A stretch of 64,000 nt of DNA from Candidatus Fermentibacterota bacterium (GCA_963718745.1 OY970370.1:1547566-1611565), one strand, 5' to 3'. Counted from the stretch's first letter, positions 12,597-62,153 are shown. Notes: generated from the sequence alone by a model not told the origin. Numbers and translations are program-made.

Positions 12597-15188
12597 TCAT
12601 CTGCCTGATCTCGTCCGCCTTGCTCCGGGTCGACTCGTCGAACTCCCCTCCGAGGATCTCCGTCGCCCTTTCGAGGGACTCCCGGCCTCCGCCCGGCGTC
12701 CAGTGAAGGCGGCAACCTGGGCGAGCACGAGCAGGGCGTGACCCTGCATGCTGGCATGCTCGATGGACTCCGCGATCCGCAGGCATTCCCCGGCCAGCCG
12801 TCCAGCCCTTTCAGGATCCTCCCGGCACAGCAGGTCGGCGATGCCCAGGAGCGACAGCTCCTCGGCCCTCCTGTCGCCCACTTCCCTCGCGATTTCGAGG
12901 GATTCCTCCAGGCAGGCGAGCGCGCGGGCGTCCTCGCCGGCGTGGATGAGCATGAAGCCCATGCTGCCGAGGGTCCGCATCTGCATGATGATGTCTCCCT
13001 GGATCCTGGCGTGGTCGAGAGCCTTCCCGTAGTGCTCCACGCCCTTCATCAGGTTGCCGCCGATCGCCTCGAGCGTGGCCAGGTTGGTGAGCGCGACTGC
13101 TATCTGCCTGTGATCCCCGATCTCCTCGACCGTGGCCAGCATCCTCTCGAAGAATCTCCTGGCTGCATCGTGCCGGCCCCCCTGCGCCTCCATGACTCCC
13201 AGCGTGCCGAGTATCCTGGGCTCGAGGTCCTTCTCCCCGGAGCCCGCTGCCAGGGTCAGGGCCTCTTCGAGCAGCAGCCGGGAATCCTCCGCCCGGCCGG
13301 CAAGCTGCAGGAAGGTCGCCATCCTCTCCATCACGTTCGCCAGCAACCCGGACCTATCGGGCTGCAGATCCCGTCCCCACCTCGACCTGAAGATCTCGAG
13401 CTTCTCGCCGAAGACCTGCAGGGCGAGGCCTGTTGTGCTCCGCACGATGAAGATCTGGCTCAGCGCGATCAGGAAGCCGCGCGTCTCGGCTGGCGGCCAC
13501 AGCCTCGCGGCCCGGTCCCACGCCTGGAGGAGGTTGGGCAGAGCCGTCTCGATCTGCTTCAGGACCTCCGCCGAACCGGCCCGGTTGATGTCCTGTCTGG
13601 CCTGCTCCAGCCAGGCGGCGAAGTGGCGGGCATGCCTCTCCGACAGTTCCTCCCGCCTGCCGGGGTCGTTCGACAGCTTTTCCGCGGCATATGCGTGGAC
13701 GATGGGGTGCATGAGGAACCTGCCGGGGGAGGGGCAGTTGAGCAGCGACCTGTCGAGGAGGCTCCGAAGGTTGCGAAGACCGCAGTCCGCCACCGCCGAG
13801 GCAGCCGGAGGATCGAACTCCCCCGCGAAGATCGACAGTCCGGATAGAGCACGCCTGCCTTCCTCGTCGAGCAGTTTCCAGGAATACTCGAAGACGGCCT
13901 CGAGCCCCCGATGCCTTCCCGGCATGTCCAGGGGAGCGGAGTCGAGCAGCTCGAAGCTGCGCGCCAGCTCGGAGACGATATCCGCCGGCGGGACCATCCG
14001 GACCCAGGAGGAGGCGAGCTCGATGCCCAGCGGGCTGCCCTCCAGCATTCTGCAGATGGAGGCTATTGCAGGCCTGTCCGCCCGCGAGGCATCCCAGCCG
14101 GGGTCCGCCCTGCGGGCCGATGCGAGGAAGAGATCCGACGCGTCGCAGCCCTCGAGGTCGGATCCGTCCGGCGCCGGAAGGTCCATCCCGCGCAGCACGA
14201 AAACCCTCTCCTCGCGGATGTCGAGCCTGTGACGGGAGGTGACCAGCAGCTTCAGCCCCGGGCTCCTGGAGAGCAGGCGCGAGAGGACCGGCGAGTCCTG
14301 CGACAGATGCTCGAAGTTGTCGGCGACGACGAGCACTTCTCTGTCGGCGAGGAACGAGGCCAGCTGGTCCTCCTCGGAGGAGGTTCCGGAGAACCTGAGG
14401 GACATTGCAGAGGCCACAGCGGCGGGGATCATGGAAGCGGAGGGGATGTCCTCGAGGCGCACGAAGAAGGCTCCGTGCCTGAAGCCAGTTATGGCGCGAG
14501 CAGCAGACTGCAGCGCCAGGCGGCTCTTACCCGTGCCGCCGGGGGCGAGTATCGTGAGCAGCCTGCAGCTTGGGTCCTCGAGCTGTGCGCAGATCTCGTC
14601 CAGCTCTCTCGCGCGGCCGACGAATGGCGTCGGCTGTGGCGGTAGGTTCTGAGGGCGGCTGGAGACCGTCCGCAGGGCGGGGAACTCCGATCTGAGTGAC
14701 GGGTGGGTCAGGATGTGGATCTGCTGAGGCTCCATCAGGTCGCGAAGAATGTGCAGACCGGCATCCAGGAGCGATGCTCCGGCGGGAAGCACTTCGGTTC
14801 GACCTGCCTCATCGTTGGCCAGGACCTGCCCGCCCCATGCCGCCGAAAGCATGCGGGCGGCGCCGTTCATGACAGGGCCGAAGTAGTCGTCGCCCCTTCG
14901 CTCGGCCTCCCCTGCGAACGCGCACATCCTGACGTTGAGTCCCCCGACCCCGGACCAGTCCCCGGCCTGCAGGGCGACCTGGGCATGGATGGCGCATTCC
15001 AGGGCCCGGCCATTGTCGAAGACGGCGATGATGCCGTCACCCGTGTGCTTGACGATCCTGCCGCCGTGGAGGGCTGCCGATTCCCGCAGGATGGAGTCGT
15101 GGCGGCAGAGGGCGGCCGACATGGCGTCGGGTGCGCTCTCCCACCTGGCGGTCGAGCCTTCGATGTCGGTGAACAGGAACGTGGGCAT
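12597..15188 (-). CDS. adenylate/guanylate cyclase domain protein with AAA-type P-loop ATPase and TPR repeats
   Basis: N-terminal class III cyclase motifs (FLFTDIEGSTARWE, HGGRIVKHTGDGIIAVF); P-loop APGGTGKSRLA; alpha-helical repeat C-terminus. Confidence 0.8.
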   Translation of the reverse strand: MPTFLFTDIEGSTARWESAPDAMSAALCRHDSILRESAALHGGRIVKHTGDGIIAVFDNGRALECAIHAQVALQAGDWSGVGGLNVRMCAFAGEAERRGDDYFGPVMNGAARMLSAAWGGQVLANDEAGRTEVLPAGASLLDAGLHILRDLMEPQQIHILTHPSLRSEFPALRTVSSRPQNLPPQPTPFVGRARELDEICAQLEDPSCRLLTILAPGGTGKSRLALQSAARAITGFRHGAFFVRLEDIPSASMIPAAVASAMSLRFSGTSSEEDQLASFLADREVLVVADNFEHLSQDSPVLSRLLSRSPGLKLLVTSRHRLDIREERVFVLRGMDLPAPDGSDLEGCDASDLFLASARRADPGWDASRADRPAIASICRMLEGSPLGIELASSWVRMVPPADIVSELARSFELLDSAPLDMPGRHRGLEAVFEYSWKLLDEEGRRALSGLSIFAGEFDPPAASAVADCGLRNLRSLLDRSLLNCPSPGRFLMHPIVHAYAAEKLSNDPGRREELSERHARHFAAWLEQARQDINRAGSAEVLKQIETALPNLLQAWDRAARLWPPAETRGFLIALSQIFIVRSTTGLALQVFGEKLEIFRSRWGRDLQPDRSGLLANVMERMATFLQLAGRAEDSRLLLEEALTLAAGSGEKDLEPRILGTLGVMEAQGGRHDAARRFFERMLATVEEIGDHRQIAVALTNLATLEAIGGNLMKGVEHYGKALDHARIQGDIIMQMRTLGSMGFMLIHAGEDARALACLEESLEIAREVGDRRAEELSLLGIADLLCREDPERAGRLAGECLRIAESIEHASMQGHALLVLAQVAAFTGRRAEAGSPSKGRRRSSEGSSTSRPGARRTRSGR

Positions 15189-21505: not shown

Positions 21506-21699
21506 CTCCGACTCCTCTCGAAAACCATACGACTATACCCTACCTTACAGGTATTCTATAGTGGAATCACATCTTGTGGTTCCCGACCATTTGAATCAGC
21601 AACGCAAGGTTCGTCCATATCCGCTGACAACCCGCAATCAGGGTCGCTGTATCAGTTGATGATGCCCCAGGGGGGAACAAAGCCCCCCTGGGACAAGTC

Positions 21700-21905
21700 G
21701 TGATAGCTATCTATGCATGGACGAGCCTGCGAGCACGGCGAAGGGGAGACACGGTCGTTGCCGGTTGGAACATCATTATAGCCCAGCTCATCAAGACGCG
21801 GAGTGGAGCAGGGTTGCGTAAGGGCAGCTCAGAATGCCTTCTACCCGCTCTGCTGCAAAGAAGCCTCTCCTGGCCGAGAGAAGGGTAGCCATGTCGGATT
21901 GGAGT
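21700..21905. repeat. mosaic intergenic repeat, copy D
   Basis: About 120 bp nearly identical to 25530..25640 and about 55 bp to 29545..29600; lies between the FG-GAP gene stop and the Met-rich gene; a 10-bp GC hairpin sits at 21666..21692. Confidence 0.6.
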
Positions 21906-21934
21906 ACCAGGAGGAAAGGTCCTCCCGCTCGATG

Positions 21935-23755
21935 CTACTCCACCACCACGACGCGTCTCGCGGTCTCGAACTCCCCGGCCTGCATCCTTACGAAGTAGAC
22001 GCCCGGGGGATGCTCGCCCAGTCCAACCTGCGAATAGCCGGGCTGGTATTCGATCGAACCCGTCGATTCCGCAACCCTGCCCGCGATGTCCAGAACGGTC
22101 AGAGTCACCATGGAAGGCTCGGGAATGCCGATCGTGACGAGCAGGGGCCCGGAGACGGGATTGGACACGAAGGGCATCAGCTCGAAACCGCCGGGCATCT
22201 CCGGCCCCTCCGTGCCGAGCGGGTTCCAGGAGACCGTTACGTCGAGCAGAGCGGGGCTGGCGCCGGGATCGTCCGTCGTCATCACGGACCTGTACTGGAA
22301 GTAGTTCGCTCCCTCAGGAAGCACGCCCGCGAGACTGCACGGGTCATCGAGAATGGCCGACCACGCCCCCATCTCGTCGGAATCGTCCGAAGCGCGCACC
22401 TGGAAGGAAATGTCGGTCTGGGAGGGAGAGTCTTCAGTCCATGTCAGACCTCCCCAGCCCGGATCGCCCTGCAGGTATAGGATGCTGGATTCCAGGACCG
22501 CCTCGTTCACATGGATGTCCCACCAGCGGAAGAAGTGCAGGTCCGGCTCGAAGCTGGTCCCCAGGATGTCCATCCAGCCGTCGCCGTCCACGTCACCCGG
22601 GATGATGCAGTCGGCAGTGTTGTACTCCCCGATGTCGCAGACCGTGTGCTCCTCCCAGTCCGTCCCCAGTCCGTCGGAGTTCTCGATCCAGATGTACTGT
22701 CCGCCAAGCCCCGTTGTGACCAGGATGTCGCTGTCTCCGTCCCGGTCGAGATCGCCGGACCCGAGGCCCCAGCAGCAATCGGAATAGGCTGCAACTACGT
22801 GCTTGGTCCAGTCCGAACCCGTGCCGCTCAGGTTCTCCCACCACGAGACGGCGTCCGAGTCAGTACCTGAACCGAGGACGTCGAGATCCCCGTCTCCGTC
22901 GAAATCGGCCGCATGGACGGAGAACGAGCTGTTGTAGCCGTCATCTATGGCGGCCATGGTCCAGGTCGTCCCGAGACCGTCGGTGTTCTCGAGCCAGAAC
23001 ACGCCGTACTCGGCTGAACCTGCGGCAATGATGTCCAGATCTCCGTCTCCGTCCAGATCGCCGGGATGCACACCGTGGTAGGAACTGCTGAGCCCCGTAT
23101 CGATCTCATGTTCGAGCCAGTCGGAGCCGTCCCCCTCGACGTTCTCCCACCAGTACCAGTACAGGCCGAAGACGTCTGCGCAGACGATGTCGATGTCTCC
23201 ATCCCCGTCGAAGTCCCCCGTGCACGGGGTCACTGGCATCTCTGGAGCGGCGCTGATCGAACAACCGATCCATAGAGTCCCCTGGCCGTCCACGTTCTCG
23301 AACCAGGAGACCAGGTCCTGGGCTGCGACGAAGTCGGTGTCGCCGTCGCCGTCGATGTCGCTCGCGCAGATGTATCCGCCGGTTGCAGCTGCTATAAAGT
23401 GAATCGTCCAGTCGGTGCCCGTGCCGTCGTTGTTCTCCCACCAGCAGACGGTGGAGGAGCTGCTCGCAACGACGTCCAGGTCCCCGTCGCCGTCCATGTC
23501 GGCAGCATCCAGGTATTCGGGCTCGAAGATGTCGTCGATGGTGTTCTCGTACTCTCCAGGGAGGATCCCGACCTGCCCGGCGGGAGACGACCACGACGCT
23601 CCGGCGCATTCGTAGAATTCTCCACCCCATGCCGTTACCGGCCCCTGAGTCCCGGGGCCGCCGGCCCAGTCGGTCTGGCTTTCGCTGTCGGCATGGCAGA
23701 CGGAAACTGTAATCAGAAGGGCTATGAGGAGGAAGAGTCGCTGCATCCGGACCAC
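21935..23755 (-). CDS. FG-GAP/VCBS repeat protein with T9SS C-terminal sorting domain
   Basis: Signal peptide; repeated DxDGDGDxD calcium-binding-like motifs; C-terminus TLTVLDIAGRVAE...PGVYFVRMQAGEFETARRVVVVE. Confidence 0.8.
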   Translation of the reverse strand: MVRMQRLFLLIALLITVSVCHADSESQTDWAGGPGTQGPVTAWGGEFYECAGASWSSPAGQVGILPGEYENTIDDIFEPEYLDAADMDGDGDLDVVASSSSTVCWWENNDGTGTDWTIHFIAAATGGYICASDIDGDGDTDFVAAQDLVSWFENVDGQGTLWIGCSISAAPEMPVTPCTGDFDGDGDIDIVCADVFGLYWYWWENVEGDGSDWLEHEIDTGLSSSYHGVHPGDLDGDGDLDIIAAGSAEYGVFWLENTDGLGTTWTMAAIDDGYNSSFSVHAADFDGDGDLDVLGSGTDSDAVSWWENLSGTGSDWTKHVVAAYSDCCWGLGSGDLDRDGDSDILVTTGLGGQYIWIENSDGLGTDWEEHTVCDIGEYNTADCIIPGDVDGDGWMDILGTSFEPDLHFFRWWDIHVNEAVLESSILYLQGDPGWGGLTWTEDSPSQTDISFQVRASDDSDEMGAWSAILDDPCSLAGVLPEGANYFQYRSVMTTDDPGASPALLDVTVSWNPLGTEGPEMPGGFELMPFVSNPVSGPLLVTIGIPEPSMVTLTVLDIAGRVAESTGSIEYQPGYSQVGLGEHPPGVYFVRMQAGEFETARRVVVVE

Positions 23756-24053
23756 CCCCGTTTAAATTTTCACTGCATATCTGATCTCGCACGACATCAG
23801 ACCTGCGTCAAGCCCAACTTCCAGATCGCTTTGACTTCAGGTCCCAGCTCTGGTCGAAGGTTTCGCAGCAGTTTCTTTCGCTAGGCGGAAGACAGGAGTC
23901 ATTCACCTTGAATCCTTTTCATGACCGAGCAAGCTCTGGTTACTGCGGTGCAGTCCTCTGGAGGCACCGACCCTCCCGATCTGCCGGAAACCTGTAAATG
24001 TCCTGCCCGGGAAGCATATCCATCGTTTTCTACGATCCGATGAAGGGTAGGCA

Positions 24054-24082
24054 TTGACTCTACGTACGGCATTGCGTACGAT
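24054..24082 (+). promoter_or_regulatory. sigma70-like promoter TTGACT-N17-TACGAT with CGTACG-N6-CGTACG operator palindromes
   Basis: About 25 nt upstream of the antitoxin start; paired short palindromes in a toxin-antitoxin promoter are the expected autoregulation architecture. Confidence 0.45.
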
Positions 24083-24105
24083 ACAGAAGATAGAAAGGGG
24101 AGCGT

Positions 24106-24348
24106 ATGTCAGCGTTGAGCGCCACTGATGCAAGAGCCCGGCTGTACCGCCTCATCGACGAGGCGGCCGAGACTCATGAACCGATCCTGATAACCGGGAA
24201 GCGGAGTAACGCCATTCTCCTCTCGGAGGAGGACTGGCGTTCGATCCAGGAAACCCTGTTCCTGCTCTCGGTCCCCGGCATGCGCGAGAGCATCGTCGAG
24301 GGCATGAAGACACCGGTCGAGAAGTGCAGCGAGAAGCCCGGCTGGTGA
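24106..24348 (+). CDS. yefM: type II antitoxin, Phd/YefM family
   Basis: 80 aa; MSALSATDARARLYRLIDEAAETHEPILITGKRSNAILLSEEDWRSIQETLFLLSVPGM matches YefM; AAAGGGGA RBS. Confidence 0.85.
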   Translation: MSALSATDARARLYRLIDEAAETHEPILITGKRSNAILLSEEDWRSIQETLFLLSVPGMRESIVEGMKTPVEKCSEKPGW

Positions 24349-24608
24349 CCTGGCGCCTGGTCTACACTGCGCAGGCCCGGAAGGACGCGAAGAAGATCCA
24401 GGCAGCCAGCCTCCGGGAAAAGACGGAAGCTCTCCTCGAACTGATCGCGAAGGATCCTTGCGCCGCCCCTCCTCCCTTCGAGAGGCTCCTCGGTGACCTG
24501 AAGGGCGCGATATCCCGCAGGATCAACATCCAGCACAGACTTGTCTACCAGGTTCTCGAAGCAGAGAAGACCATCAAGGTCCTCAGGATATGGACGCACT
24601 TCGAGTAG
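24324..24608 (+). CDS. yoeB: type II toxin, YoeB/Txe family
   Basis: RLVYTAQARKDAKKI...RRINIQHRLVYQV...IWTHFE matches YoeB; the likely start is the GTG at 24345 overlapping the antitoxin stop. Confidence 0.85.
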   Translation: MQREARLVTWRLVYTAQARKDAKKIQAASLREKTEALLELIAKDPCAAPPPFERLLGDLKGAISRRINIQHRLVYQVLEAEKTIKVLRIWTHFE

Positions 24609-24705
24609 ACAGAATCAGCCCTCTGGAAGCATGACCGCCATGCCTTCTTGCCTGCCTGGACCCTCTTCCGTATCGTCACTTCTGGCGTATGCGAGAGGGG
24701 GGCGT

Positions 24706-25182
24706 ATGCGGATCGTCGCCGAAGTTCTCGGGCTAGTCACGATCTTCACTTTGATGCTCTCAGGATGCGGCAGTTATGAGGACGAAACCGTCATCTTCAC
24801 CAAGGTCCTCCCGGCTGACGTTCAGCAGCTCATGGACAACGGGTATCTCGACAGCGGGGGTGCAAACCCCATCCTTTATCCTGTCGAGGAAATGTGGGAA
24901 GACTTCTACTTCGCAGAAACCCCCGAGATGCTGGACTCCCTGTTCCAGGAATATCCTCCAGTTCTGGACAGCCTCTTCCCGGAAGGCGGCTCACTTCTGA
25001 TCCTGGACCTCCACACAGAAATTGAGGATGAAGTTCTAGGCTACTCTATGGAAGCCAGTTCTGACACAGTGCGGATATGTGTTGAGATAAGATACCGAGA
25101 TGTCGGAAGCCCTTATCCAGGGATTCGCGAGTGGGTTTTCCCGATGGGAGTTGTTCTTGATCCGGAGACTCCCGCTGAGTAG
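24706..25182 (+). CDS. hypothetical lipoprotein
   Basis: Internal start MRIVAEVLGLVTIFTLMLSGCGS with GAGAGGGGGG RBS. Confidence 0.55.
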   Translation: MRIVAEVLGLVTIFTLMLSGCGSYEDETVIFTKVLPADVQQLMDNGYLDSGGANPILYPVEEMWEDFYFAETPEMLDSLFQEYPPVLDSLFPEGGSLLILDLHTEIEDEVLGYSMEASSDTVRICVEIRYRDVGSPYPGIREWVFPMGVVLDPETPAE

Positions 25183-25307
25183 ACTGACGCCGACCAGCTG
25201 ACCTCGCGGACTTCCACACGGATGCAGTAGACGATCTCGCCTAAACCCCGTAATCTCAAAAGGCTTCAACATCCTGGGGCTGCTCAACAACCCGAAGAAG
25301 ACGGATG

Positions 25308-25640
25308 TGTCCCACGGGGATACGCAGCCCCCCGTGGACCGGTCGCGCGAACGAATCGAGCTGAATGGCAGTTGTGAGCGCGACAAGGCATCATCACGGT
25401 CGTTTCACGGAAACGACGATGCTGTGCTTATCTACTGGTGGTGATGATGCCTTTGCCACTTCCCGCAGGGAAGTGGCGGTCCTGGTCCTTTGTGGATGGA
25501 ACACCCTGATGGCCCAACTCGTGAAGATTGCGGCGTGGAGCAGAGTTTCGTAAGGTCTGCTCAGAATGTCCTCTACCCGCTCTGCTGCAAATAAGCCTCT
25601 CCTGGCCGGAGAAGTAATAGCCATGTCGGATTGGAGAATG
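25308..25640. repeat. mosaic intergenic repeat, copy A (includes a hairpin variant of the tRNA-Glu 3'-end motif)
   Basis: About 270 bp aligns with 27396..27650 at high identity; its 3' part matches copy D. Confidence 0.65.
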
Positions 25641-25794
25641 GCCTGAACAATGTGGATGGGATTGCAGGCCAGCTCGATTCCGGATGATCAATTCCCTCGA
25701 TGTTGACGACACTCACATCTGAACTTGCTGGCATGTCCTAGTCTAGGCATAGATAGAATACACTCGGCTTCGGTAATGGGCTGGAGGTGGAACG

Positions 25795-27285
25795 GTGTTG
25801 GCGCTCCTTTTACTTGCAGCGACCGCGAGTCCACCCGAGATCCTGTGGGCTGCCTGGTCCCCTGGCGGGATAGTTGATGTAGAGTGCGCCGGCTTCGTGA
25901 ATGGCGACTCCACCGAAGATGTCTTTGCCGCGTCAGATGAAGCCTCCGGGCATGGCATCATGTGCCTGGACGGGGCTACAGGTGGAATCATCTGGCTCAA
26001 CGACTCTCTTCCGGGAATCACTGGCACGGGTTGCCTCCGAGCTATCAGAGACGTGAATCTTGACGGAGTTCATGATGTTGCGGCAGGTTCATCGGCGAAT
26101 CCTGCGGTGGCTGTCTTCTCTGGAAGCACAGGTGAGATTCTGTGGAGCATTCCCCAGGAGTATCCGGTCTGTTGGATCGAGGCCGCCAATGGTCCTGGTC
26201 CCTCGGACGTCTACGTTCTTGTTAACCGACAGAACTCATACTGGACCAGTTGTGCCGCGCTTGTCGGTCAAACTGGAGCGCAGCAGTGGGCCACGCCTTA
26301 CGTGGCAACCACAGATCTCTGGCTAAGAGCGACTGAAGGTGACATCAACGGTACAGGCTGGTCCGAGTTCGGTATATCGGTTGACAGGGGATCTGTCAGC
26401 GGCGGATGGGCCGACGTGATGGACGGTTCGAATGGCGGCCTGATCCATCGAGAAAACACGATGTATTTCGGATCCATGGACGTATGCGACACGCCCATGC
26501 CGTTGATGGTCATGTCTCACTTCGGAACCTACCCCGTGACATGGGCGTACTCCTTTGTCTCGGGCACTGTAGTATGGCAGAGTTACAACCCGGATCTGGG
26601 TGGCGCCCAGCTCCAGATTCTCCCGAGCATCACCCAGCCTGCCACCCCGGATCGTGAGATCCTCGGATTCGGAAGCAGCAGCCACCTGGTCCTGTTCAGT
26701 TGTGATGAGGAATACACTGACGTTTTTGTTGAATACGTCTTTCCGAGCGCGATCAGGGCGGTTGACTATTTCTGTGAGGCTGCAACGTGGAGGGTTGCCT
26801 TGGTGACCTCGGCCAGATTCCATTGCCCCCTGCTGGACCTTTGGTCCCCACCTTCCACAGAGCCTTCAATCGCCTTGCCTAACGCGGATGCACAGGATCT
26901 TTGCCTGATCGAGTCGGTTCTCTCTCCGACACCACTCGTAGCTGTCGCAATGAAAGCAGCCGGACCAGGTGTCTGCGCGATTCGCACCACATGGCCCGAA
27001 GGCATCGAGGAGGAAAGCACAGCCCCCAATCTGGTCTTGAGCTCCTGTTCGCCTAGTCCTGGGACGGGGGAGTTCAGTCTCACCTGGTCATCCGGCATGG
27101 GGCCGACGGAGATCGGAGTCTATGAGGAATCCGGCAGACTCTGCCTCGATTGCGACCTGGGTCTGATGCCCGAAGGCGAACACTCCACACAGCTCGACCT
27201 GCAGGAAATGCCCTCCGGCTGCTATGTGGTCGTAGTCTCCTGTGGCACAGAGCGGGCCTCCACGAAGCTGGTTGTGCTCAGGTAG
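25795..27285 (+). CDS. secreted repeat protein with T9SS-like C-terminal domain
   Basis: GTG start with GGAGGTGG RBS; signal MLALLLLAATASPP; C-terminus GVYEESGRLCLDCDLG...PSGCYVVVVSCGTERASTKLVVLR. Confidence 0.7.
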   Translation: MLALLLLAATASPPEILWAAWSPGGIVDVECAGFVNGDSTEDVFAASDEASGHGIMCLDGATGGIIWLNDSLPGITGTGCLRAIRDVNLDGVHDVAAGSSANPAVAVFSGSTGEILWSIPQEYPVCWIEAANGPGPSDVYVLVNRQNSYWTSCAALVGQTGAQQWATPYVATTDLWLRATEGDINGTGWSEFGISVDRGSVSGGWADVMDGSNGGLIHRENTMYFGSMDVCDTPMPLMVMSHFGTYPVTWAYSFVSGTVVWQSYNPDLGGAQLQILPSITQPATPDREILGFGSSSHLVLFSCDEEYTDVFVEYVFPSAIRAVDYFCEAATWRVALVTSARFHCPLLDLWSPPSTEPSIALPNADAQDLCLIESVLSPTPLVAVAMKAAGPGVCAIRTTWPEGIEEESTAPNLVLSSCSPSPGTGEFSLTWSSGMGPTEIGVYEESGRLCLDCDLGLMPEGEHSTQLDLQEMPSGCYVVVVSCGTERASTKLVVLR

Positions 27286-27375
27286 GAGAGCCTCCGAAGC
27301 TGCTTCCCGATTCCGTGCTGTAGTGCGTCTGGCTGTCTGTATTAGCGCAAAATATTGCTGTATAACTGATTATAT

Positions 27376-27660
27376 GGTGGCGGTCCCACGGGGCAACGCA
27401 GTCCCCCGTGGACCGGTCGCGCGAACGATTCGAGATGGATAGCCGTTGTGAGCGCGACAAGGCATCATCACGTCGTTTCTCTGGGAACGACGATGCTGTG
27501 CTTATCTACTGGTGGTGATGATGCCTTTGCCACTTCCCGCAGGGAAGTGGCGGGCCTGGTCCTTCGTGGATGGAACACCCTGATGGCCCAGCTCATCAAG
27601 ATCGCAGCCTGGAGCGAGGTTTCGTGAGGGGCAGCTCAGGATGGTGTTATCAGCTCCAAT
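27376..27660. repeat. mosaic intergenic repeat, copy B (starts with a duplicate of the tRNA-Glu 3' terminus)
   Basis: TGGCGGTCCCACGGGG (revcomp = the last 16 nt of tRNA-Glu) followed by the CAACGCAGT-loop hairpin and about 250 bp shared with copy A. Confidence 0.65.
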
Positions 27661-27845
27661 TGGCCATCGATCCTCTACAGGATGGAGAAGTAGTAGCCAG
27701 AGGGGATTGGACCACCACGGTATCTTGCCATTGTTGTGTCTGGTCGACTACAGATCGCTGCCGTCAACCAACCGAGCTAGCTGGTTAGGATACTGGAGCT
27801 CCATGCCCCAGTTCTGAAGACCTTCCTAATGGAACAGCCAACCCA

Positions 27846-28931
27846 CTACTGCAGCTCGAAAATGTAGACCCGGGGCCACGAGCTGGCGAAAGGATTCCAG
27901 GCAAGAATCCCGCGATCTGTGATGCGGAAGATCATCAGCTCGTCGCCGGGGAGGCCACTGACAGCGGAGGTGAACTCCAGCGTGCCATCCGACCTATACA
28001 CGTCGAACTCAGGGTGGAAATAGGAACTGTGGTGCACCCAGACCCTTCCCAGGGAATCCTGGACCTGGATCCCGATCACACCCAGCTCCCTTGGATCAGG
28101 GCGCCAGGCCCCGCCCATGTTGTCACGGTACCGGCGCCAGAGGAGTTCCTCCTCTACTTCCAGAGAATCGCGGAAACCTGGTTCCCGGGGATTTTGAAGA
28201 GTATCCAGGGGGGTACCGTCCTGCGCTAAAACTAGGACACGATTGTTGACGCCAGAGAGGGCCACATATATGTGCCCGTCACTATCTGTAGTTACTGCAG
28301 GCTGTCCGGCATAAAGCTCGTAGAGATCCTCGGGATTGATGCTGATCTGCTGAAGTGAGCTAAAGGTAGTGGTTATCTCTCCGGTGTCGATGCTCCACCG
28401 GGACAAGTCCATAGAAAGCGTGAGATCGCCATTCTGATCCGCAGTGAGATTCCCGGCCCAGCCGAGAGCGGAGCTGTCTGGAAGGATACTCAGCTGATCG
28501 ATGACCGAATTTCCGGGGAGTGTGACGGAACGCACCGTTGCCAAATCAGCTCGGTAGTACACAAATCGTCGAAGGTAGTATTCGTATAGGACGAAGCCTT
28601 CGCCGAATGGCGTTATCCCACCGATGTGATTGTATTCCAAAGGGCCATTGCCCAGATTCTTGACCCGGCTGATGCAGAGACCATCCGGAGAAAACAGACG
28701 CAGATCCTGATACGCCCCGTCCGCAACCAGTATGTTTCCGTCCGGTATGAAGAATGCCCCAGCGACTTTGCCCAGTAAAAGGTTGCTATCTCCGATTTCA
28801 ACTCCGATGGAATCGACAACTCGCAGTTCTCTGTATGTGATCGGATCATCGGTTGCTGGTGTGGGTCCTTTGCAGGCGATAGCCATAAGGATCAATGGCC
28901 CGCCTGAAACAAGGAAATATCCACTTCTCAT
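27846..28931 (-). CDS. hypothetical lipoprotein, beta-propeller-like
   Basis: Start MRSGYFLVSGGPLILMAIACKG (lipobox) with GGAGG RBS; repetitive beta-rich sequence. Confidence 0.65.
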   Translation of the reverse strand: MRSGYFLVSGGPLILMAIACKGPTPATDDPITYRELRVVDSIGVEIGDSNLLLGKVAGAFFIPDGNILVADGAYQDLRLFSPDGLCISRVKNLGNGPLEYNHIGGITPFGEGFVLYEYYLRRFVYYRADLATVRSVTLPGNSVIDQLSILPDSSALGWAGNLTADQNGDLTLSMDLSRWSIDTGEITTTFSSLQQISINPEDLYELYAGQPAVTTDSDGHIYVALSGVNNRVLVLAQDGTPLDTLQNPREPGFRDSLEVEEELLWRRYRDNMGGAWRPDPRELGVIGIQVQDSLGRVWVHHSSYFHPEFDVYRSDGTLEFTSAVSGLPGDELMIFRITDRGILAWNPFASSWPRVYIFELQ

Positions 28932-29149
28932 CCCGCTAATCACCTCCAGTCTGCAATATCATCAGTTTCGCAGCTCTGCCTGTCTAGTTACAGGGATCGA
29001 AGTCCAATCCGGGGAAGGTCAGCATTCCGAGCTTCAGAACCCGGGGACCGTTAATGCGATCCTTCAAGACAAGGACGAGCTGCTTGCACGACCAGGCATC
29101 GTCATGGTCGTTTTAGGAAACGACGGCTCTGAGCTTGTAACCAGTTGGT

Positions 29150-29650
29150 GATGATGCCTTTGCCACTTCCCATGGGGAGGACGCTCAGGCCCTCTCGCGG
29201 CTCGTCTCTTCAGTTTCGCAAGGCGAAACTGATACTTAGCAGAACACTCCAGTTCCGCGAAGCGAAAATGGTACGTAGCGCAACAGCATGGTTCCCGAAG
29301 GGAACCTGCGAGTGCGCGTGTCTGTGTTACCAGGGAACCTGCAAGTGTGCGTGAATGTCGTTGAAGGCTTTACCGCTCTCGCAGGTCCGCTTCGCGGACC
29401 GTGCTGCCGCTAAACTCATCCCTCTTCGCGGGATTCGAGACCTGTCGGGCCAGGTCATTCCCGCAGACGCGGGAATGACCGTGGCGGTCCCACGGGGCAA
29501 CGCAGTCCCCCGTGGACCTGCCGTGAGAGCTTCGTGCGAATACTGTGAGCCTGCGAGCACGGCGCAGGGACGACACGGTTGTTGCCGGAGGGAACGACCA
29601 TTCAACCGTTATGTCTTCGAGGTGTCGTCACTGCTGCCACTTGCCGGAGG
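29150..29650. repeat. mosaic hairpin-rich repeat block, copy C, directly downstream of tRNA-Glu
   Basis: Contains a second duplicate of the tRNA-Glu 3' end (~29482..29497), the hairpin GGTCATTCCCGC-AGAC-GCGGGAATGACC, and units shared with copies D and E. Confidence 0.65.
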
Positions 29651-29654
29651 CAAG

Positions 29655-29730
29655 TGGCGGTCCCACGGGGAATCGAACCCCGGTTTGATGGCTGAGAACC
29701 ACCCGTCCTAGACCTCTAGACGATGGGACC
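29655..29730 (-). tRNA. tRNA-Glu (anticodon CUC)
   Basis: Revcomp GGTCCCATCGTCTAGAGGTCTAGGACGGGTGGTTCTCAGCCATCAAACCGGGGTTCGATTCCCCGTGGGACCGCCA; cloverleaf with TTCTCAG anticodon loop; CCA encoded. Confidence 0.9.
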
Positions 29731-29766: not shown

Positions 29767-31293
29767 TTACGTCAAGACCCCTCGGCGGGTTGCCCTTCCG
29801 CCGGCTCTTCTCTGAAGAGATCGGCGTACTTCTGCTCCGATGTCCGACAGCATTGCCTGGGTCACGGGGCCGAGGGCCTCGATCGCGCGTCGCAGCCGCA
29901 TGCGCACCATGTCGGTACCCAGCAGCGCCATCGAGTCGTACAGCGGGGTGGAGGCCTTCGACCCGCTCACGGCCATGTAGAACGGTTTCGTGAGATCCCG
30001 CAGCTTGATGCCCAGCCTGTCGCTCATGGTCTTGAACATCTCCTCCACGCCTTCGGCAGTGAGACCCTGCATGCGCTCGATCTCCCAGATCGAGTACTGG
30101 AGGATCTCCTGCGACTCCTGCGGCGTCCGGCCCTTCAGGAGCAATGCTTCCGCATCGAGCGGCACGGAGTCCGAGAAGAAGAAGGAGGTGAGATGCCCCC
30201 AGTCGGAGAGGGTCTCGAGACGGGTGTGGGCAACCCGTGCAACCTTCCCGAGGTATTCCTGATTGAGCCCCCAGCTCTGGAGGCGGGCAAGAAGGGTGTC
30301 GGGCGTGAGGTCCTCCCTGATGTACCTTGCATTCAACCACCGCAGCTTGGCAAAGTCGAACACCGGGCCGCCCAGGGTGACGTCCTCGAGCCTGAACTCC
30401 CTCACCATGTCCTCGACTGTGAACTTCTCCTCCCCGCCCGGCATGCCCCAGCCCATCATCCCCAGGTAGTTGAGGAGAGCCTCCGGGAGGAAGCCCGCCT
30501 GCCTGAAATACGTGATGGAGGTGGGGTTCTTCCTCTTCGACAGCTTGCTCTTGTCCGCATTCCGCAGCAGGGGCAGGTGGCAGAAGACGGGCGGCTCCCA
30601 TCCGAACAGGCTGAAGAGGTGGACGTGCTTGGGGACGGAGTTGATCCACTCCTCGCCGCGGATGATGTGGCTGATCTTCATCAGATGGTCGTCCACCACG
30701 ACCGCGAGGTGGTATGTGGGGAATCCGTCGCTCTTCATCAGCACCTGGTCGTCGACCGTGGACCAGGCCTTCCTGATCTCTCCCCGCAGGAGGTCCGTGA
30801 AGACGCAGTCGCCCTCCAGGGGCGCCTTCATCCGTATTACGAAATGCTCGCCAGCCGTGGCCCGCCTGTCGGACTCCTCGCGCGGGATGTCCCTGCAGTG
30901 CCTGTCATAGCCGGAGCCCGCGCCCGTCCGGCGGGAGTCGCGCATGGAGTCCAGGCGCTCCTTCGTGCAGAAGCAGCGGTATGCGGCTTCCTTCGAGAGA
31001 AGGGCTTCGGCGTGCTCCCTGTAGATCGCGAGCCGCTCGCTCTGCCTGTAGGGTCCATACGGTCCGCCGACACCGGGACCCTCGTCCCACTTCAGGCCGA
31101 GCCACTCGAGGGAATCCAGGATGGCCTTTTCCGAATGCCCGGTGGACCGCTCCTGGTCGGTGTCCTCGATCCTCAGGACGAAGCTGCCGCCGTTCCGCTT
31201 CGCCCAGACATAGTCGAACAGAGCCTGGTAGGCGGTTCCGACATGCGGGTCCCCGGTCGGGGAGGGGGCGATCCTGGTCCTGACCTCCGTCAC
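29767..31293 (-). CDS. gltX: glutamyl-tRNA synthetase
   Basis: HIGH-type motif PHVGTAY and KMSKS-type KLSKRK; full-length class I GluRS; start overlaps the glnS stop. Confidence 0.95.
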
Positions 31294-33032
31294 CCGTTCA
31301 CCCCCGGGGTTCCGGTCCGCTCGATCTTCGCCCAGGTGTCCCTGAGGGTGGCGGTGCGGTTGAAGACCGGCGCGCCCGGCTTCGAGTCCTGGGGGTCCGT
31401 GAAGAAGTAGCCCAGGCGCTCGAACTGCCAGCTGGAGCCGACGGGCGCTTCGGCCAGATGCTTCTCGATCAAGGCCCCGGCGACGATCTCGAGCGATCCG
31501 GGGTTCAGCTCTTCCTTCCAGTCGACACCCTCCGTGGACCCTGGGAACTCGGCCGAGAAGAGGTGGTCGTACAGCCTGACCTCGGTCGCCATGGAATGCC
31601 TCGCGGAGACCCAGTGGAGGGTCGCCTTGACCTTGCGTCCGTCCGGGGCGTCGCCGCCCCGGGTCGCGGGGTCGTATGTGCAGCGCAGTTCGGTCAGTTC
31701 ACCAGTTGAAGGGTCCTTCGTAACGCCGGTGCACTTCACGAGGTAGGCGTACCTGAGCCTGACCTCGACGCCCGGGGAGAGGCGGTGGTACTTCGGCGGC
31801 GGCACCTCGCGGAAGTCGTCACGCTCGATGTAGACCTCGCGGGAGAAGGAGATCTTCCGGGTCCCCGCCGAGAGGTCCTCGGGGTTCACGACGAAGTCGA
31901 ACTCCTCGACCAGGTCCGGAGGATAGTTCTCTATGACAACCTTTATCGGCTTGAGGACTGCCATGGCGCGCGGGGCCGTGCGGTTGAGCTCCTCCCGGAC
32001 GCAGTGCTCGAGCAGCGCGATGTCCACCACGCTGTCGCGCTTCGCTACGCCGACCCTCTCTGCGAAGGCCCGGATGGCAGCGGGCGGGTAGCCCCGGCGC
32101 CTGATCCCCGCAAGCGTCGGCATCCTGGGGTCGTCCCAGCCACGTACGCGACCTTCGTTCACGAGCTGGAGGAACTTGCGCTTGCTCATCACCGTGTGCG
32201 TCAGGTTCAACCTTGCGAACTCGATCTGGCGGGAGTGATGGATGCCTAGCTCGTCGAGGAACCAGTCGTACAGAGGCCTGTGGTCCTCGAACTCCAGCGT
32301 GCAGATCGAATGCGTGATCCCCTCGAGCGAGTCCGAGACCGGGTGGGCGTAGTCGTACATCGGATAGATGCACCATGCGTCCCCGGTCCGGTGGTGGCTG
32401 GCGCGCAGGATCCTGTAGACGACGGGATCGCGCATGTTGAGGTTGGGCGAGGACATGTCGATCCTCGCACGAAGGGTCCTCGAGCCGTCCGGAAACTCTC
32501 CTGCCCGCATCCGCCGGAACAGGTCGAGGTTCTCGGCGACGCTGCGCCCGCGCCACGGGCTGTTCCTGCCAGGCTCGGTCAGGGTGCCCCTGTACTCCTT
32601 CATCTCGTCGGCCGCGAGGTCGCAGACGTAAGCGCTGCCCTTCATGACCAGCCGCTCCGCGAAATCGTACAGCCTGTCGAAGTAGTCCGAGGCGTAGAAG
32701 AGCCTGTCCTCCCAGTCGAATCCCAGCCAGCGAACGTCGTTCATTATCGAGTCGACGTACTCGACCTCCTCCTTCGAGGGGTTCGTGTCGTCGAAGCGGA
32801 GGTTGCACAGACCTGAATACTGCTTCGCGATCCCGAAGTTCAGGCAGATGGATTTGGCGTGGCCGATGTGGAGGTAGCCGTTGGGTTCAGGAGGGAAGCG
32901 CGTGTGTACCAGCCCTCCGAAGCGCCCTGTCCTGTTGTGCTCGTCTATGATCTCGCGGATGAAGTCCCGGGCTCCGGACGATGCCCCAGCATCAGCCCCG
33001 GCAGCCGGCCTCTCGCTCGTCTTCTCGTTCAT
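31290..33032 (-). CDS. glnS: glutaminyl-tRNA synthetase
   Basis: HIGH-type NGYLHIGH and VMSKRK motifs; length and C-terminal anticodon-binding region typical of GlnRS. Confidence 0.9.
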
Positions 33033-43196: not shown

Positions 43197-43379
43197 AACG
43201 GTCGGTAAAATATTGATGGGCAGAGAGATGAGAGAAAAACAGATCTGGCTGCGTCTCTCCGCTCGAACTGCCATATAACTAACCGTACTCCGGGTCTGCT
43301 GCAAGGTCGAACAAGGCCCATTCCTGGTTTCAGATCCCTCATTCCGGCTGAGCCGGAATGAGCAGGTAGCACATCAGCA

Positions 43380-43860
43380 TGGTTCAAAAAGGAAGGACGC
43401 TCGGGCCCTCTCGCGGTTCGCCACTCCAGTTCCGCGAGGCGGAACTGGTAGGTAGCACGACAGCATGGTTCCCGGAGGGAACCTGCGAAAGTGCGTGCAA
43501 GTCGTTATAGAGGTCGCTCGGAGCCCTCTCGCGGCTCGCCTCTTCCGGCTGATGCTCTGTGAGCTGGCGAGCCACTGACGGGCCAGGTCGTTCCTGCGCT
43601 TGCAGGAACGACCGATGCGAGTGTGCGTGCATGTGTTATAGAGGTTCGCTCGGGCCCTTTCGCGGCTCGCCTCTCCGGAATGTTCTTGATCTGGCGAGCC
43701 ACTGACGGGCCATGTCATTCCCGCGGACGCGGAGTTGATGGAAGCCCTGCGGGCTCGTTTGAGGAAGATCGCCCGGGTCCTCTCGTTATCCGCCAGACGT
43801 CTTGAACAACGGATGGCGGATAACTGTCGGACCTGGTCATTCCTGCCCGTGCAGGAATGA
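43380..43860. repeat. mosaic hairpin-rich repeat block, copy E, directly downstream of tRNA-Ser
   Basis: Tandem ~130-bp units sharing blocks with copy C; perfect hairpin GGTCATTCCTGC-CCGT-GCAGGAATGACC abutting the tRNA-Ser 3' end, plus variants with compensatory stem changes. Confidence 0.65.
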
Positions 43861-43863
43861 CCG

Positions 43864-43956
43864 TGGCGGAGAGGGAGGGATTCGAACCCTCGGATAGGTG
43901 ATAAGCCCATCAACCGCTTAGCAGGCGGTTGCCTTCAGCCTCTCGGCCACCTCTCC
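43864..43956 (-). tRNA. tRNA-Ser (anticodon GCU)
   Basis: Revcomp GGAGAGGTGGCCGAGAGGCTGAAGGCAACCGCCTGCTAAGCGGTT...GAGGGTTCGAATCCCTCCCTCTCCGCCA with long variable arm; CCA encoded. Confidence 0.9.

Positions 43957-62076: not shown

Positions 62077-62153
<77 letters not shown>

What the first reader, a model, noticed from the sequence alone, without database searches (positions are those of the whole stretch)
21700..29730. Cassette-like array downstream of tRNA-Glu bounded by mosaic repeats carrying duplicates of the tRNA 3' end
Two exact duplicates of the last 16 nt of tRNA-Glu (TGGCGGTCCCACGGGG on the top strand) lie at about 29482 and 27378, and a variant lies near 25320. Each is embedded in a hairpin (CCACGGGG-CAACGCAGT-CCCCCGTGG) and followed by about 250 bp of near-identical sequence in copies A and B. 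The copies are spaced about 2.1 kb apart and bracket single cargo genes (a beta-propeller lipoprotein and a T9SS-type secreted protein), with a YefM/YoeB pair next door. This resembles serial site-specific integration at a tRNA 3' end, or an integron-like cassette array, but no integrase is visible in the window. Repeat blocks are shared in mosaic fashion with 21.7 kb and 43.4-43.9 kb.
Basis: seen in the sequence. Interest (0 to 1): 0.8.

Follow-up and report, generated by a model that had tools for sequence, protein, structure and literature searches.

The report
Serine-integrase cassette island at tRNA-Glu
The repeated tRNA-Glu ends mark the borders of three decayed mobile elements that a large serine integrase once inserted downstream of the tRNA-Glu gene of an uncultured Fermentibacteria bacterium. 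This is a known kind of genomic island, with some unusual details.

Summary
Exact 16-nt copies of the tRNA-Glu(CTC) 3' end lie at 29482 and 27378, and a decayed copy at 25303. All three sit in hairpins, and the repeats occur only in five intergenic regions.

Contigs of the relative Ca. Fermentibacter daniensis with identical GluRS differ immediately after tRNA-Glu:
- an empty site, where tRNA-Glu is followed by a structured ~175-nt trailer "U" that ends in the hairpin copy "T";
- a site holding a large serine recombinase (LSR) gene whose reading frame runs across the tRNA end;
- the matching right junction, called ext-t|U below.

Together these give attB, attL and attR with the common core CCGCCA.

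In the window, 57 nt next to the copy at 25303 are 90% identical to that LSR's 3' end. Each cassette has the form T | cargo – ext – t | U. The ext arm keeps, in frame, a conserved tail of the LSR reading frame.

I read the array as three LSR-type elements inserted at successive T|U junctions of a tandem trailer array. Their integrases have since been deleted.

An integron is excluded. No intact recombinase lies in the window. Two things stay unexplained: why the trailer conserves its structure, and why T copies both strands of the tRNA acceptor/T-arm.

The parts
29655..29730 (-). tRNA-Glu(CTC), the primary attachment target. It lies directly downstream of GlnRS (31290-33032) and GluRS (29767-31293).
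   Evidence: ARAGORN, Rfam tRNA at 54.5 bits, Pfam for the two synthetases.
29482..29654 (-). Trailer unit U' (beta subtype). It has hairpin H1, which begins in the tRNA's GCCA, then a long hairpin H2 and hairpin H3, then the minihelix 29482-29518. The last 16 nt of the minihelix (29482-29497, T_A) are an exact copy of the tRNA-Glu 3' end.
   Evidence: Fold of -79.6 kcal/mol, z -3.1. Member of alignment A2, which shows compensatory changes.
27557..29481 (-). Cassette c1. It holds hairpin modules shared with the tRNA-Ser trailer (29178-29481), a partial U copy (about 29040-29178), a 365-aa lipoprotein-like gene (27846-28943, minus strand, GC3 0.61), and the right arm ext_B (27557 to about 27720).
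   Evidence: ext_B matches the ext of L088.
27548..27556 (-). t_B: the partial tRNA end GGCCCGCCA. This is the core of the attR-type junction between ext_B and U_B.
   Evidence: Sequence. Same junction as L088 attR...AAGCCCGCCA|U.
27378..27547 (-). Trailer unit U_B (alpha subtype), ending in the minihelix 27378-27414 with the exact 16-nt copy T_B at 27378-27393.
   Evidence: Fold of -82.5 kcal/mol, z -6.0. nhmmer E 2e-45.
27568..27627 (+). Conserved C-terminal coding tail GWNTLMAQLIKIAAWSEVS* inside ext_B. It is in frame with GTG GCG G of the core, which is the frame the LSR of L095 uses to cross the tRNA end.
   Evidence: This frame has 42 synonymous and 51 non-synonymous codon differences, against 11-28 and 63-83 in the other five frames.
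25483..27377 (-). Cassette c2. It holds a T9SS C-terminal-domain protein gene (25795-27285, plus strand, GC3 0.64) and the right arm ext_C (25483 to about 25660, tail ORF ending at 25553).
25303..25482 (-). t_C (25474-25482, GGACCGCCA) plus trailer unit U_C (alpha subtype), ending in the decayed copy T_C at 25303-25319.
   Evidence: nhmmer E 3e-47.
25243..25299 (+). Relic of the last ~19 codons of a large serine recombinase gene, abutting T_C. This is the left (attL-type) end of cassette c3.
   Evidence: blastn against L095 11642-11699: 89.7% over 58 nt, E 1e-12. Alignment A3. tblastn 50% over 32 aa.
21905..25242 (-). Rest of cassette c3. It holds a small lipoprotein ORF (about 24706-25182, plus strand), YoeB/ParE (24324-24608, plus), YefM (24106-24348, plus), and an FG-GAP protein with a T9SS C-terminal domain (21935-23755, minus).
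   Evidence: Pfam. The YefM/YoeB pair is conserved at 79% nt in L091 and also present in L104.
21658..21904 (-). Decayed distal junction: ext_E (21766-21904, frame-shifted tail) fused to a U remnant (21723-21771) and a minihelix-like hairpin without CCA (21666-21694).
   Evidence: nhmmer E 5e-14.
43338..43866 (-). Multi-hairpin trailer of tRNA-Ser(GCT) (the tRNA is at 43864-43956). It is built from the same modules as the left end of c1, and this tRNA also ends CCGCCA. It is related sequence but not shown to be an attachment site.
   Evidence: (families D4, D8, D9).

Best explanation
The region 21.66-29.65 kb is a genomic island anchored on the 3' end of tRNA-Glu(CTC). It was built by integrative elements that use a large serine recombinase (LSR).

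What is shown in the sister species:
- The attachment site attB is the last bases of the tRNA (core CCGCCA) plus the start of its structured trailer U.
- The element's attP lies inside the 3' end of its own LSR gene.
- After integration the LSR reading frame runs into the antisense of the tRNA. This junction is attL.
- The natural 23-26-codon tail of the LSR (...VAGLVxxGWNTLMAQLIKIAAWSxVS*) is left at the far end of the element, as ext-t|U. This junction is attR.

What is inferred for the window:
- Every trailer unit U ends in a copy (T) of the tRNA-Glu 3' end.
- U-T units occur in tandem, so each T|U junction is a further attB-like landing site.
- Three elements sit at three successive junctions, each as T | cargo - ext - t | U.
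- All three have lost their LSR genes. Only 57 nt of one survive, at 25243-25299.
- What remains is single-gene or few-gene cargo of atypical base composition.

Not explained: the hairpin around each T reproduces both strands of the tRNA acceptor and T stems. I think it most likely reflects the palindromic half-sites of a recombinase attachment site, but this was not tested.
For: (1) F. daniensis contigs encoding an identical GluRS diverge right after tRNA-Glu.
- L096 and L101-L103 have tRNA|U-T|U-T followed by a restriction-modification cassette.
- L095 has tRNA followed directly by an LSR gene.
- L094 and L098 carry another LSR element, and there the tRNA end is changed to GGGACCACCA.

(2) The L095 protein is a serine integrase. 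It has the Resolvase, Recombinase and Zn_ribbon_recom domains and the YTRVSTREQ motif. It matches the TP901-1 and A118 integrase structures. Its last 13 residues are the antisense translation of the tRNA.

(3) L088 is 100% identical to L084 over 5.5 kb from 6 nt before the tRNA end onward. Upstream of that point it carries cargo plus ext instead of GluRS and the tRNA. This gives the attB/attL/attR set with the common core CCGCCA.

(4) Six ext copies keep an open tail in the LSR frame, and the five aligned copies end in a stop at the same codon. dN/dS is 0.05-0.8, and this frame has the most synonymous differences of the six frames.

(5) The window carries the LSR relic next to T_C.

(6) Gene content between tRNA-Glu and YefM/YoeB differs in three species:
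- 5 kb of secreted proteins and lipoproteins in the window;
- 12.6 kb holding a restriction-modification system, IS3, a Schlafen-like gene and toxin-antitoxin genes in L091;
- 5.8 kb holding a C25 peptidase and a FlgD_ig protein in L104.

(7) Cargo GC3 is 0.61-0.64, against 0.8-0.88 in core genes. GC content is 0.55-0.58, against 0.63-0.65 in the flanks.

(8) An uninterrupted tandem array exists in L097: tRNA|U-T|U-T|U.

(9) At least eight short-read contigs end at or within 13 nt of the tRNA-Glu 3' end.

(10) The reconstructed attP has modest dyad symmetry centred on the junction, 12 of 25 positions complementary.
Against: - No intact recombinase lies in the window.
- Only c3 carries an LSR relic. 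The left ends of c1 and c2 are unrelated to the LSR gene, so their assignment rests on their ext-t|U right ends alone.
- The two ends of one complete LSR element were never seen on a single contig. L095 and L088 come from different samples.
- The short-read metagenome contigs could be chimeric across the repeats.
- Serine integrases do not normally re-use attL. The multi-site model therefore depends on the pre-existing (U-T)n array, whose origin is unknown.
- The strong covariation in U is not something an att-site model predicts.
Confidence: 0.75

Rival explanations
1. Mosaic made by duplication and homologous recombination. In this reading U-T units are simply the structured RNA trailer or terminator of tRNA-Glu, amplified by unequal crossing-over between the 16-nt repeats. 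Cargo is swapped between strains by homologous recombination across these 175-250-nt repeats. The LSR relic would come from one unrelated prophage visit.
For: U has conserved hairpins: 18 of 48 pairs carry compensatory changes, and 92.8% of cells are paired against 35-45% when the partners are slid. U lies on the tRNA strand. Tandem U-T arrays exist without any insert. c1 and c2 have no LSR relic. The tRNA-Ser trailer shares modules with c1.
Against: This reading does not explain ext, a conserved in-frame LSR tail found at every cargo/U border in six copies. It does not explain the exact attB/attL/attR set sharing CCGCCA. It does not explain why borders fall precisely at the CCA.
Confidence: 0.12
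2. Integron-like system. Here U, or the minihelix, would act as a folded single-stranded recombination site like attC. tRNA-Glu would play the role of attI, and a recombinase would be encoded elsewhere.
For: Structure is conserved more than sequence between the alpha and beta subtypes. All units share one orientation. Cassettes hold one to a few genes, and one holds a toxin-antitoxin pair. One unpaired base is conserved in the minihelix.
Against: No IntI is present. There are no R''/R' box pairs (0 against 0.9 expected). Cargo genes point both ways. A serine integrase that acts on double-stranded sites is found at the site in sister genomes. The minihelix stem is invariant, without covariation.
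Confidence: 0.03
3. RNA-level element. The minihelix plus CCA would be a tRNA-like processing signal for RNase P, RNase Z or the CCA-adding enzyme, comparable to the t-elements of plant mitochondria. It would define the ends of the trailer RNA or of upstream mRNAs. This could coexist with the integration model.
For: The minihelix equals tRNA-Glu with positions 8-48 removed, followed by an encoded GCCA. H1 starts exactly at the CCA. On the tRNA strand there are 15 G-U cells, against 9 that would be G-U on the other strand. Two of the four units follow genes on the same strand.
Against: There are no expression data. U_C (25303-25473) follows no gene on its own strand, and the L093 unit at 3044-3222 is flanked by genes on the opposite strand. 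tRNA-Met in the same window uses an ordinary hairpin terminator with a T-run. Rfam has no match.
Confidence: 0.08
4. REP/BIME- or MITE-like dispersed repeats that happen to lie here.
For: The regions have a mosaic of short hairpin modules.
Against: Within 64 kb the repeats occur only behind tRNA-Glu, inside its island, and behind tRNA-Ser. Nine other intergenic gaps longer than 300 nt have none. No RAYT or transposase is present.
Confidence: 0.02

Closest known systems
Staphylococcal and enterococcal cassette chromosomes (SCCmec, ECC)
   Same: Large serine recombinases insert elements at the 3' end of a conserved gene. The elements are flanked by direct repeats, their cargo is highly variable, and remnants are common next to the target gene (PMC6222049). 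From my own knowledge, arrays also include recombinase-less pseudo-elements.
   Different: Here the target is a tRNA gene rather than rlmH. A single LSR is unrelated in site sequence to CcrAB. attP lies inside the integrase reading frame. The extra landing sites are copies of the target end carried by a tandem trailer.
tRNA-seeded islands built by serial integration (tycheposons of Prochlorococcus)
   Same: Islands sit next to a tRNA. Elements are separated by partial tRNA copies. Newer elements push older ones outward. Degenerate elements and scattered partial tRNAs occur. A minority of these elements use an LSR (bioRxiv 10.1101/2020.12.28.424599).
   Different: Most tycheposons use tyrosine recombinases with att sites of about 40 nt. 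No structured trailer or minihelix copy is described there.
Phage serine integrases (phiC31, Bxb1, TP901-1, A118)
   Same: The domain architecture is the same. The logic attP x attB -> attL + attR is the same, with reversal needing a directionality factor (PMC5737554).
   Different: The integrase reading frame crosses attP, so its C-terminal tail changes with integration state: 13 tRNA-antisense residues when integrated, and a 26-residue conserved tail when excised. From memory, gene splitting by integration is known for SSV-type tyrosine integrases of archaea, not for LSRs.
Integron cassette arrays / CALINs
   Same: Arrays of short cassettes are separated by structured repeats that all point the same way. 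Toxin-antitoxin cassettes are present.
   Different: There is no IntI and there are no attC boxes. Borders lie at the tRNA CCA end, and a serine recombinase is implicated.

Membership tests
Site-specific integrative element at a tRNA gene (LSR-mediated) | Empty and occupied alleles with the same flanks, giving attB, attL and attR that share a core | tested here: met
   L084 is attB, L095 is attL and L088 is attR. The common core is CCGCCA. L088 and L084 are 100% identical over 5.5 kb from the core onward. This was seen in the sister species, not in the window's own population.
Site-specific integrative element at a tRNA gene (LSR-mediated) | Recombinase gene adjacent to the attachment site | tested here: inconclusive
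   An intact LSR abuts the tRNA in L095, and another lies in L094. In the window only a 57-nt relic remains, at 25243-25299, and no intact recombinase was found.
Site-specific integrative element at a tRNA gene (LSR-mediated) | Direct repeats of the target end flank each insert, and the target gene stays intact | tested here: met
   T_A, T_B and T_C sit on the left of c1, c2 and c3. t_B and t_C sit on the right of c1 and c2; the distal junction of c3 has lost its t. The tRNA scores 54.5 bits in Rfam.
Site-specific integrative element at a tRNA gene (LSR-mediated) | Variable accessory cargo of atypical composition between conserved flanks | tested here: met
   Three species carry different cargo between tRNA-Glu and YefM/YoeB. 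Cargo GC3 is 0.61-0.64 against 0.8-0.88 in core genes.
Site-specific integrative element at a tRNA gene (LSR-mediated) | Recombination activity: circular intermediate or in vitro attP x attB reaction | not testable with these tools
   This needs PCR or long reads on a culture or community, or purified protein.
Integron / CALIN | IntI-type tyrosine recombinase with attI | tested here: not met
   No Phage_integrase-type protein was found among about 56 window ORFs.
Integron / CALIN | attC sites with RYYYAAC ... GTTRRRY boxes at cassette borders | tested here: not met
   0 box pairs at 40-130 nt spacing in 21600-29730, against 0.9 expected. Borders lie at CCGCCA.
SCC-type cassette chromosome | CcrAB/CcrC recombinases and an rlmH 3' end target with the TATCATAA core | tested here: not met
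   The target is tRNA-Glu and the core is CCGCCA. A single LSR is present per element. Homology to Ccr proteins was not tested.
REP/BIME or MITE | Many copies dispersed in intergenic regions, with a RAYT or transposase partner | tested here: inconclusive
   Within the window the repeats are confined to the tRNA-Glu and tRNA-Ser trailers and the island. The rest of the 2.5-Mb genome could not be read.
Known structured RNA families (Rfam) | Match at gathering score | tested here: not met
   Only the three tRNAs match.

The most novel reading that the evidence does not exclude
The tandem (U-T)n trailer is a maintained, structured multi-dock landing pad. Each ~175-nt unit would regenerate an attB by ending in a minihelix copy of tRNA-Glu, which lets several serine-integrase elements sit side by side although attL cannot be re-used. 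In addition, the integrase would switch its C-terminal tail between the integrated and excised states, because attP lies inside its reading frame, and this could feed into control of directionality.
Probability: 0.25. Interest if true: 0.7.

Novelty: new variant of a known kind. Interest (0 to 1): 0.45.

Why it matters
- It explains a striking repeat pattern as the scars of serine-integrase elements.
- It identifies tRNA-Glu(CTC) as an active integration hot spot in Candidatus Fermentibacteria, a candidate phylum known only from metagenomes.
- It explains why short-read assemblies of these organisms break at this tRNA.
- If the landing-pad and tail-switch ideas hold, they would show how serine integrases, which cannot re-use attL, can still build multi-element islands. 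They would also supply a new natural attP/attB pair, with a tRNA target, for genome engineering.

Tried and rejected
- Rfam gathering-score scan: only the tRNAs matched.
- First metagenome pattern, requiring the exact 5' arm GGTCCACGGGG: no hit.
- Viral-contig scans for the minihelix and for a 25-nt U motif: none. The tRNA-Glu 3' half hit only phage tRNA clusters of other isoacceptors.
- Exact-protein look-ups. GlnRS was not on record. YefM returned only places without DNA.
- Searches for full-length homologues. The 59-aa ORF across U/ext gave one 44-aa hit. The second ext motif gave none. So ext is not the end of any catalogued intact gene, as expected if its full form exists only in excised circles.
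- I first read the hairpin as a tRNA-like minihelix RNA, and LU (the whole ext-t-U block) as an attP-like junction of tandem elements. I then read ext as a small type-I-toxin-like ORF. All three were superseded once the LSR allele was found.
- ωRNA, bridge-RNA and CAST homing-guide analogies: rejected because no TnpB, IS110 or Cas12k genes are present and the order of ORF tail and structure is wrong.
- Hits L087, L090 and L092 of the metagenome scan are unrelated contexts and were not pursued.
- tblastx comparison of cargo between elements gave only noise.

Full report
**Observation**

The window has 63.8% GC. tRNA-Glu(CTC) lies at 29655-29730 on the minus strand, directly behind GlnRS and GluRS.

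Its last 16 nt recur exactly at 29482 and 27378; none of 100 shuffles gave three matches. A decayed copy sits at 25303-25319 and a more remote hairpin at 21666-21694.

A self-BLAST confines all repeats to five intergenic regions: four between 21.66 and 29.66 kb, and the trailer of tRNA-Ser at 43.3-43.87 kb. Nine other intergenic gaps longer than 300 nt have none.

One detail of the finding is wrong. The 247-nt near-identical block links the copies at 27383 and 25309, not those at 29482 and 27378.

**Anatomy, read in the orientation of the tRNA (window minus strand)**

tRNA-Glu is followed by a ~175-nt unit U made of four parts:
- hairpin H1, which begins inside the tRNA's GCCA;
- a long hairpin H2;
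- hairpin H3;
- a "minihelix", GGTCC(A)CGGGGG-loop-CCCCGTGGGACC, followed by GCCA.

The last 16 nt of the minihelix are the tRNA-end copy T. The minihelix equals tRNA-Glu with positions 8-48 removed.

The other two full units, U_B and U_C, are each preceded by two features: a partial tRNA end t (GG[A/C]CCGCCA) and an 80-170-nt arm that I call ext.

Nine U copies from the window and its relatives fall into two subtypes with one architecture. On their alignment:
- 18 of 48 predicted pairs show compensatory changes;
- 92.8% of cells pair, against 35-45% when the partners are slid;
- the minihelix stem itself never varies.

Single units fold with z-scores of -6.0 and -3.1.

**Relatives**

The organism belongs to Candidatus Fermentibacteria. 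The closest GluRS sequences, about 80% identical, are from Ca. Fermentibacter daniensis. The source is a 2.52-Mb contig.

A metagenome scan for a hairpin plus the tRNA-Glu end found the same locus in F. daniensis. There tRNA-Glu is followed by U-T, a second U-T, a 6-kb restriction-modification cassette, another U-T, IS3, a Schlafen-like gene, toxin-antitoxin genes, and then the YefM/YoeB pair that is conserved with the window.

A third species (L104) has tRNA-Glu, a short trailer ending in T, a C25 peptidase and a FlgD_ig protein, and then YoeB/YefM and enolase.

So the content between tRNA-Glu and the toxin-antitoxin pair differs in all three species. In the window the cargo genes have GC3 of 0.61-0.64, against 0.8-0.88 for neighbouring core genes.

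**The decisive result**

Contigs that encode exactly the same GluRS protein differ immediately after tRNA-Glu:
- L096 and L101-L103 carry the "empty" trailer.
- L095 carries a 519-aa large serine recombinase on the opposite strand. It has the Resolvase, Recombinase and Zn_ribbon_recom domains and the YTRVSTREQ motif. It matches TP901-1 and A118 integrase structures. Its reading frame runs across the tRNA 3' end, so that its last 13 residues (VAVPRGIEPRFDG) are antisense tRNA.
- L094 and L098 carry a different LSR element, and there the tRNA end reads GGGACCACCA.
- L088 is 100% identical to the empty allele over 5.5 kb from 6 nt before the tRNA end onward, but upstream it has cargo genes plus ext.

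These give the three junctions:
- attB: ...GGGACCGCCA|U
- attL: ...GGGACCGCCA|LSR 3' end
- attR: ext...GCCCGCCA|U

The common core is CCGCCA.

**The ext arm**

On the anti-tRNA strand ext encodes VAG-LVxxGWNTLMAQLIKIAAWSxVS*. This is in the same frame as the GTG GCG G with which the L095 LSR crosses the core.

Six copies keep this tail open, and the five aligned copies stop at the same codon. Across those five, the frame has 42 synonymous and 51 non-synonymous codon differences, against 11-28 and 63-83 in the other five frames. dN/dS ranges from 0.05 to 0.8.

My inference is that attP lies inside the LSR gene. Integration would then leave the natural tail at the far end of the element.

**Back in the window**

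The 57 nt next to T_C (25243-25299) are 89.7% identical to the LSR 3' end next to the tRNA in L095 (E 1e-12).

Each cassette has the form T | cargo - ext - t | U:
- c1 spans 27557-29481;
- c2 spans 25483-27377;
- c3 spans about 21905-25302. Its distal junction is a decayed ext-U at 21658-21904.

Uninterrupted tandem arrays, tRNA|U-T|U-T|U, exist in L097. I therefore infer that each T|U junction is an attB-like site and that three LSR-type elements inserted at three of them.

This also removes a difficulty: serine integrases do not recombine attL without a directionality factor (PMC5737554).

No intact recombinase is present in the window.

**What is shown and what is inferred**

Shown:
- the repeats and their confinement to five intergenic regions;
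- the conserved structure of U;
- variable cargo between conserved flanks;
- an LSR at this tRNA end in sister genomes;
- the allele set with a common core;
- the LSR relic in the window.

Inferred:
- ext is the split-off LSR tail;
- c1 and c2, which have no relic, came in the same way;
- the (U-T)n array pre-existed and served as multiple docks.

Unexplained:
- why U keeps its hairpins by compensatory change;
- why T is embedded in a copy of both strands of the acceptor and T stems. Palindromic att half-sites of a second recombinase family, or an RNA role, remain possible.

**Comparison with known systems**

The closest analogues are two:
- SCCmec/ECC cassette chromosomes, where LSRs target the 3' end of a conserved gene, cargo is highly variable, and remnants of elements lie next to the target gene (PMC6222049);
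- tRNA-seeded islands such as those built by tycheposons, with partial tRNAs between serially integrated elements and a minority using an LSR (bioRxiv 10.1101/2020.12.28.424599).

An integron is excluded. There is no IntI, no attC box pair occurs (0 against 0.9 expected), and borders lie at CCGCCA.

**Verdict**

It is a new variant of a known kind of island and is of moderate interest. The landing-pad array and the integrase reading frame that spans attP are the parts worth following up.

Noticed in passing
window 43338-43866 (minus strand), behind tRNA-Ser(GCT) at 43864-43956: tRNA-Ser is followed by about 500 nt of hairpin modules with internal repeats (43484-43598 matches 43616-43725). The same modules form the left end of cassette c1 (29178-29481). 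tRNA-Ser also ends CCGCCA, and its junction CCGCCA|CGGTCATTCC is the same as the one at T_A. It may be a second landing site.
   Followed up: partly
L084 1620-2010; L089 2290-2470: In F. daniensis the minihelix is split by one to three and a half tandem copies of a 53-nt unit (hairpin GGGGGACTTCGTnTCCCC plus a spacer). A restriction-modification cassette appears to be inserted within such an array.
   Followed up: partly
window ~27690-27720, ~25600-25630, ~21880-21905; L088 ~2815-2850; L093 ~3365-3395: A second peptide-like conserved motif, GE(V/E)(V/I)Ax(G/S)DW, lies in ext on the anti-tRNA strand, in another frame downstream of the LSR tail stop. It may be the start of a lost element gene. 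It has no homologue in the protein database.
   Followed up: partly
L094 11626-11637 and L098 11626-11637: In the allele occupied by the second LSR element (IS1595, LSR, DUF2924, a LexA-like repressor), the tRNA-Glu discriminator base is changed from G to A (GGGACCACCA). This places that element's crossover 5' of the discriminator and leaves an altered tRNA.
   Followed up: no
L002, L003, L099, L100, L107-L110: Short-read contigs from at least eight assemblies of three Fermentibacteria species end at, or within 13 nt of, the tRNA-Glu 3' end. This is a systematic assembly break caused by the repeats and by allele heterogeneity at this site.
   Followed up: yes
window 27337-27377; L104 11765-11800; L093 3000-3043: The ~40 nt just after T are similar in three genomes (CATATAATCAGTTATACAGCAATATTTTG in the window, CATATCTGGTTATACCGCAATATGTTA in L104), although different cargo follows. 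This may be a conserved element arm or part of the ancestral flank.
   Followed up: no
window 62077-62153 and 62449-63648; L086 1274-2434: tRNA-Met has an ordinary GC hairpin with a T-run as terminator, and none of the repeats. The Fic/DOC gene beside it has a homologue (74% nt identity) next to the IS3 copy in one F. daniensis contig. This points to an IS-mediated rearrangement or an assembly chimera.
   Followed up: partly
L093 1-4201: A Logan contig carries an ArsR-type regulator and a chromate transporter bracketed by two ext-t-U units. One has a new compensatory H1 variant (GCCACTTTTC/GAAAAGTGGC). This is an independent example of the cassette format.
   Followed up: yes
window 12597-15188 (minus strand): An 863-aa protein combines weak cyclase and STAND-NTPase matches with TPR repeats. 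It may be a defence or signalling NTPase and is unrelated to the finding.
   Followed up: no
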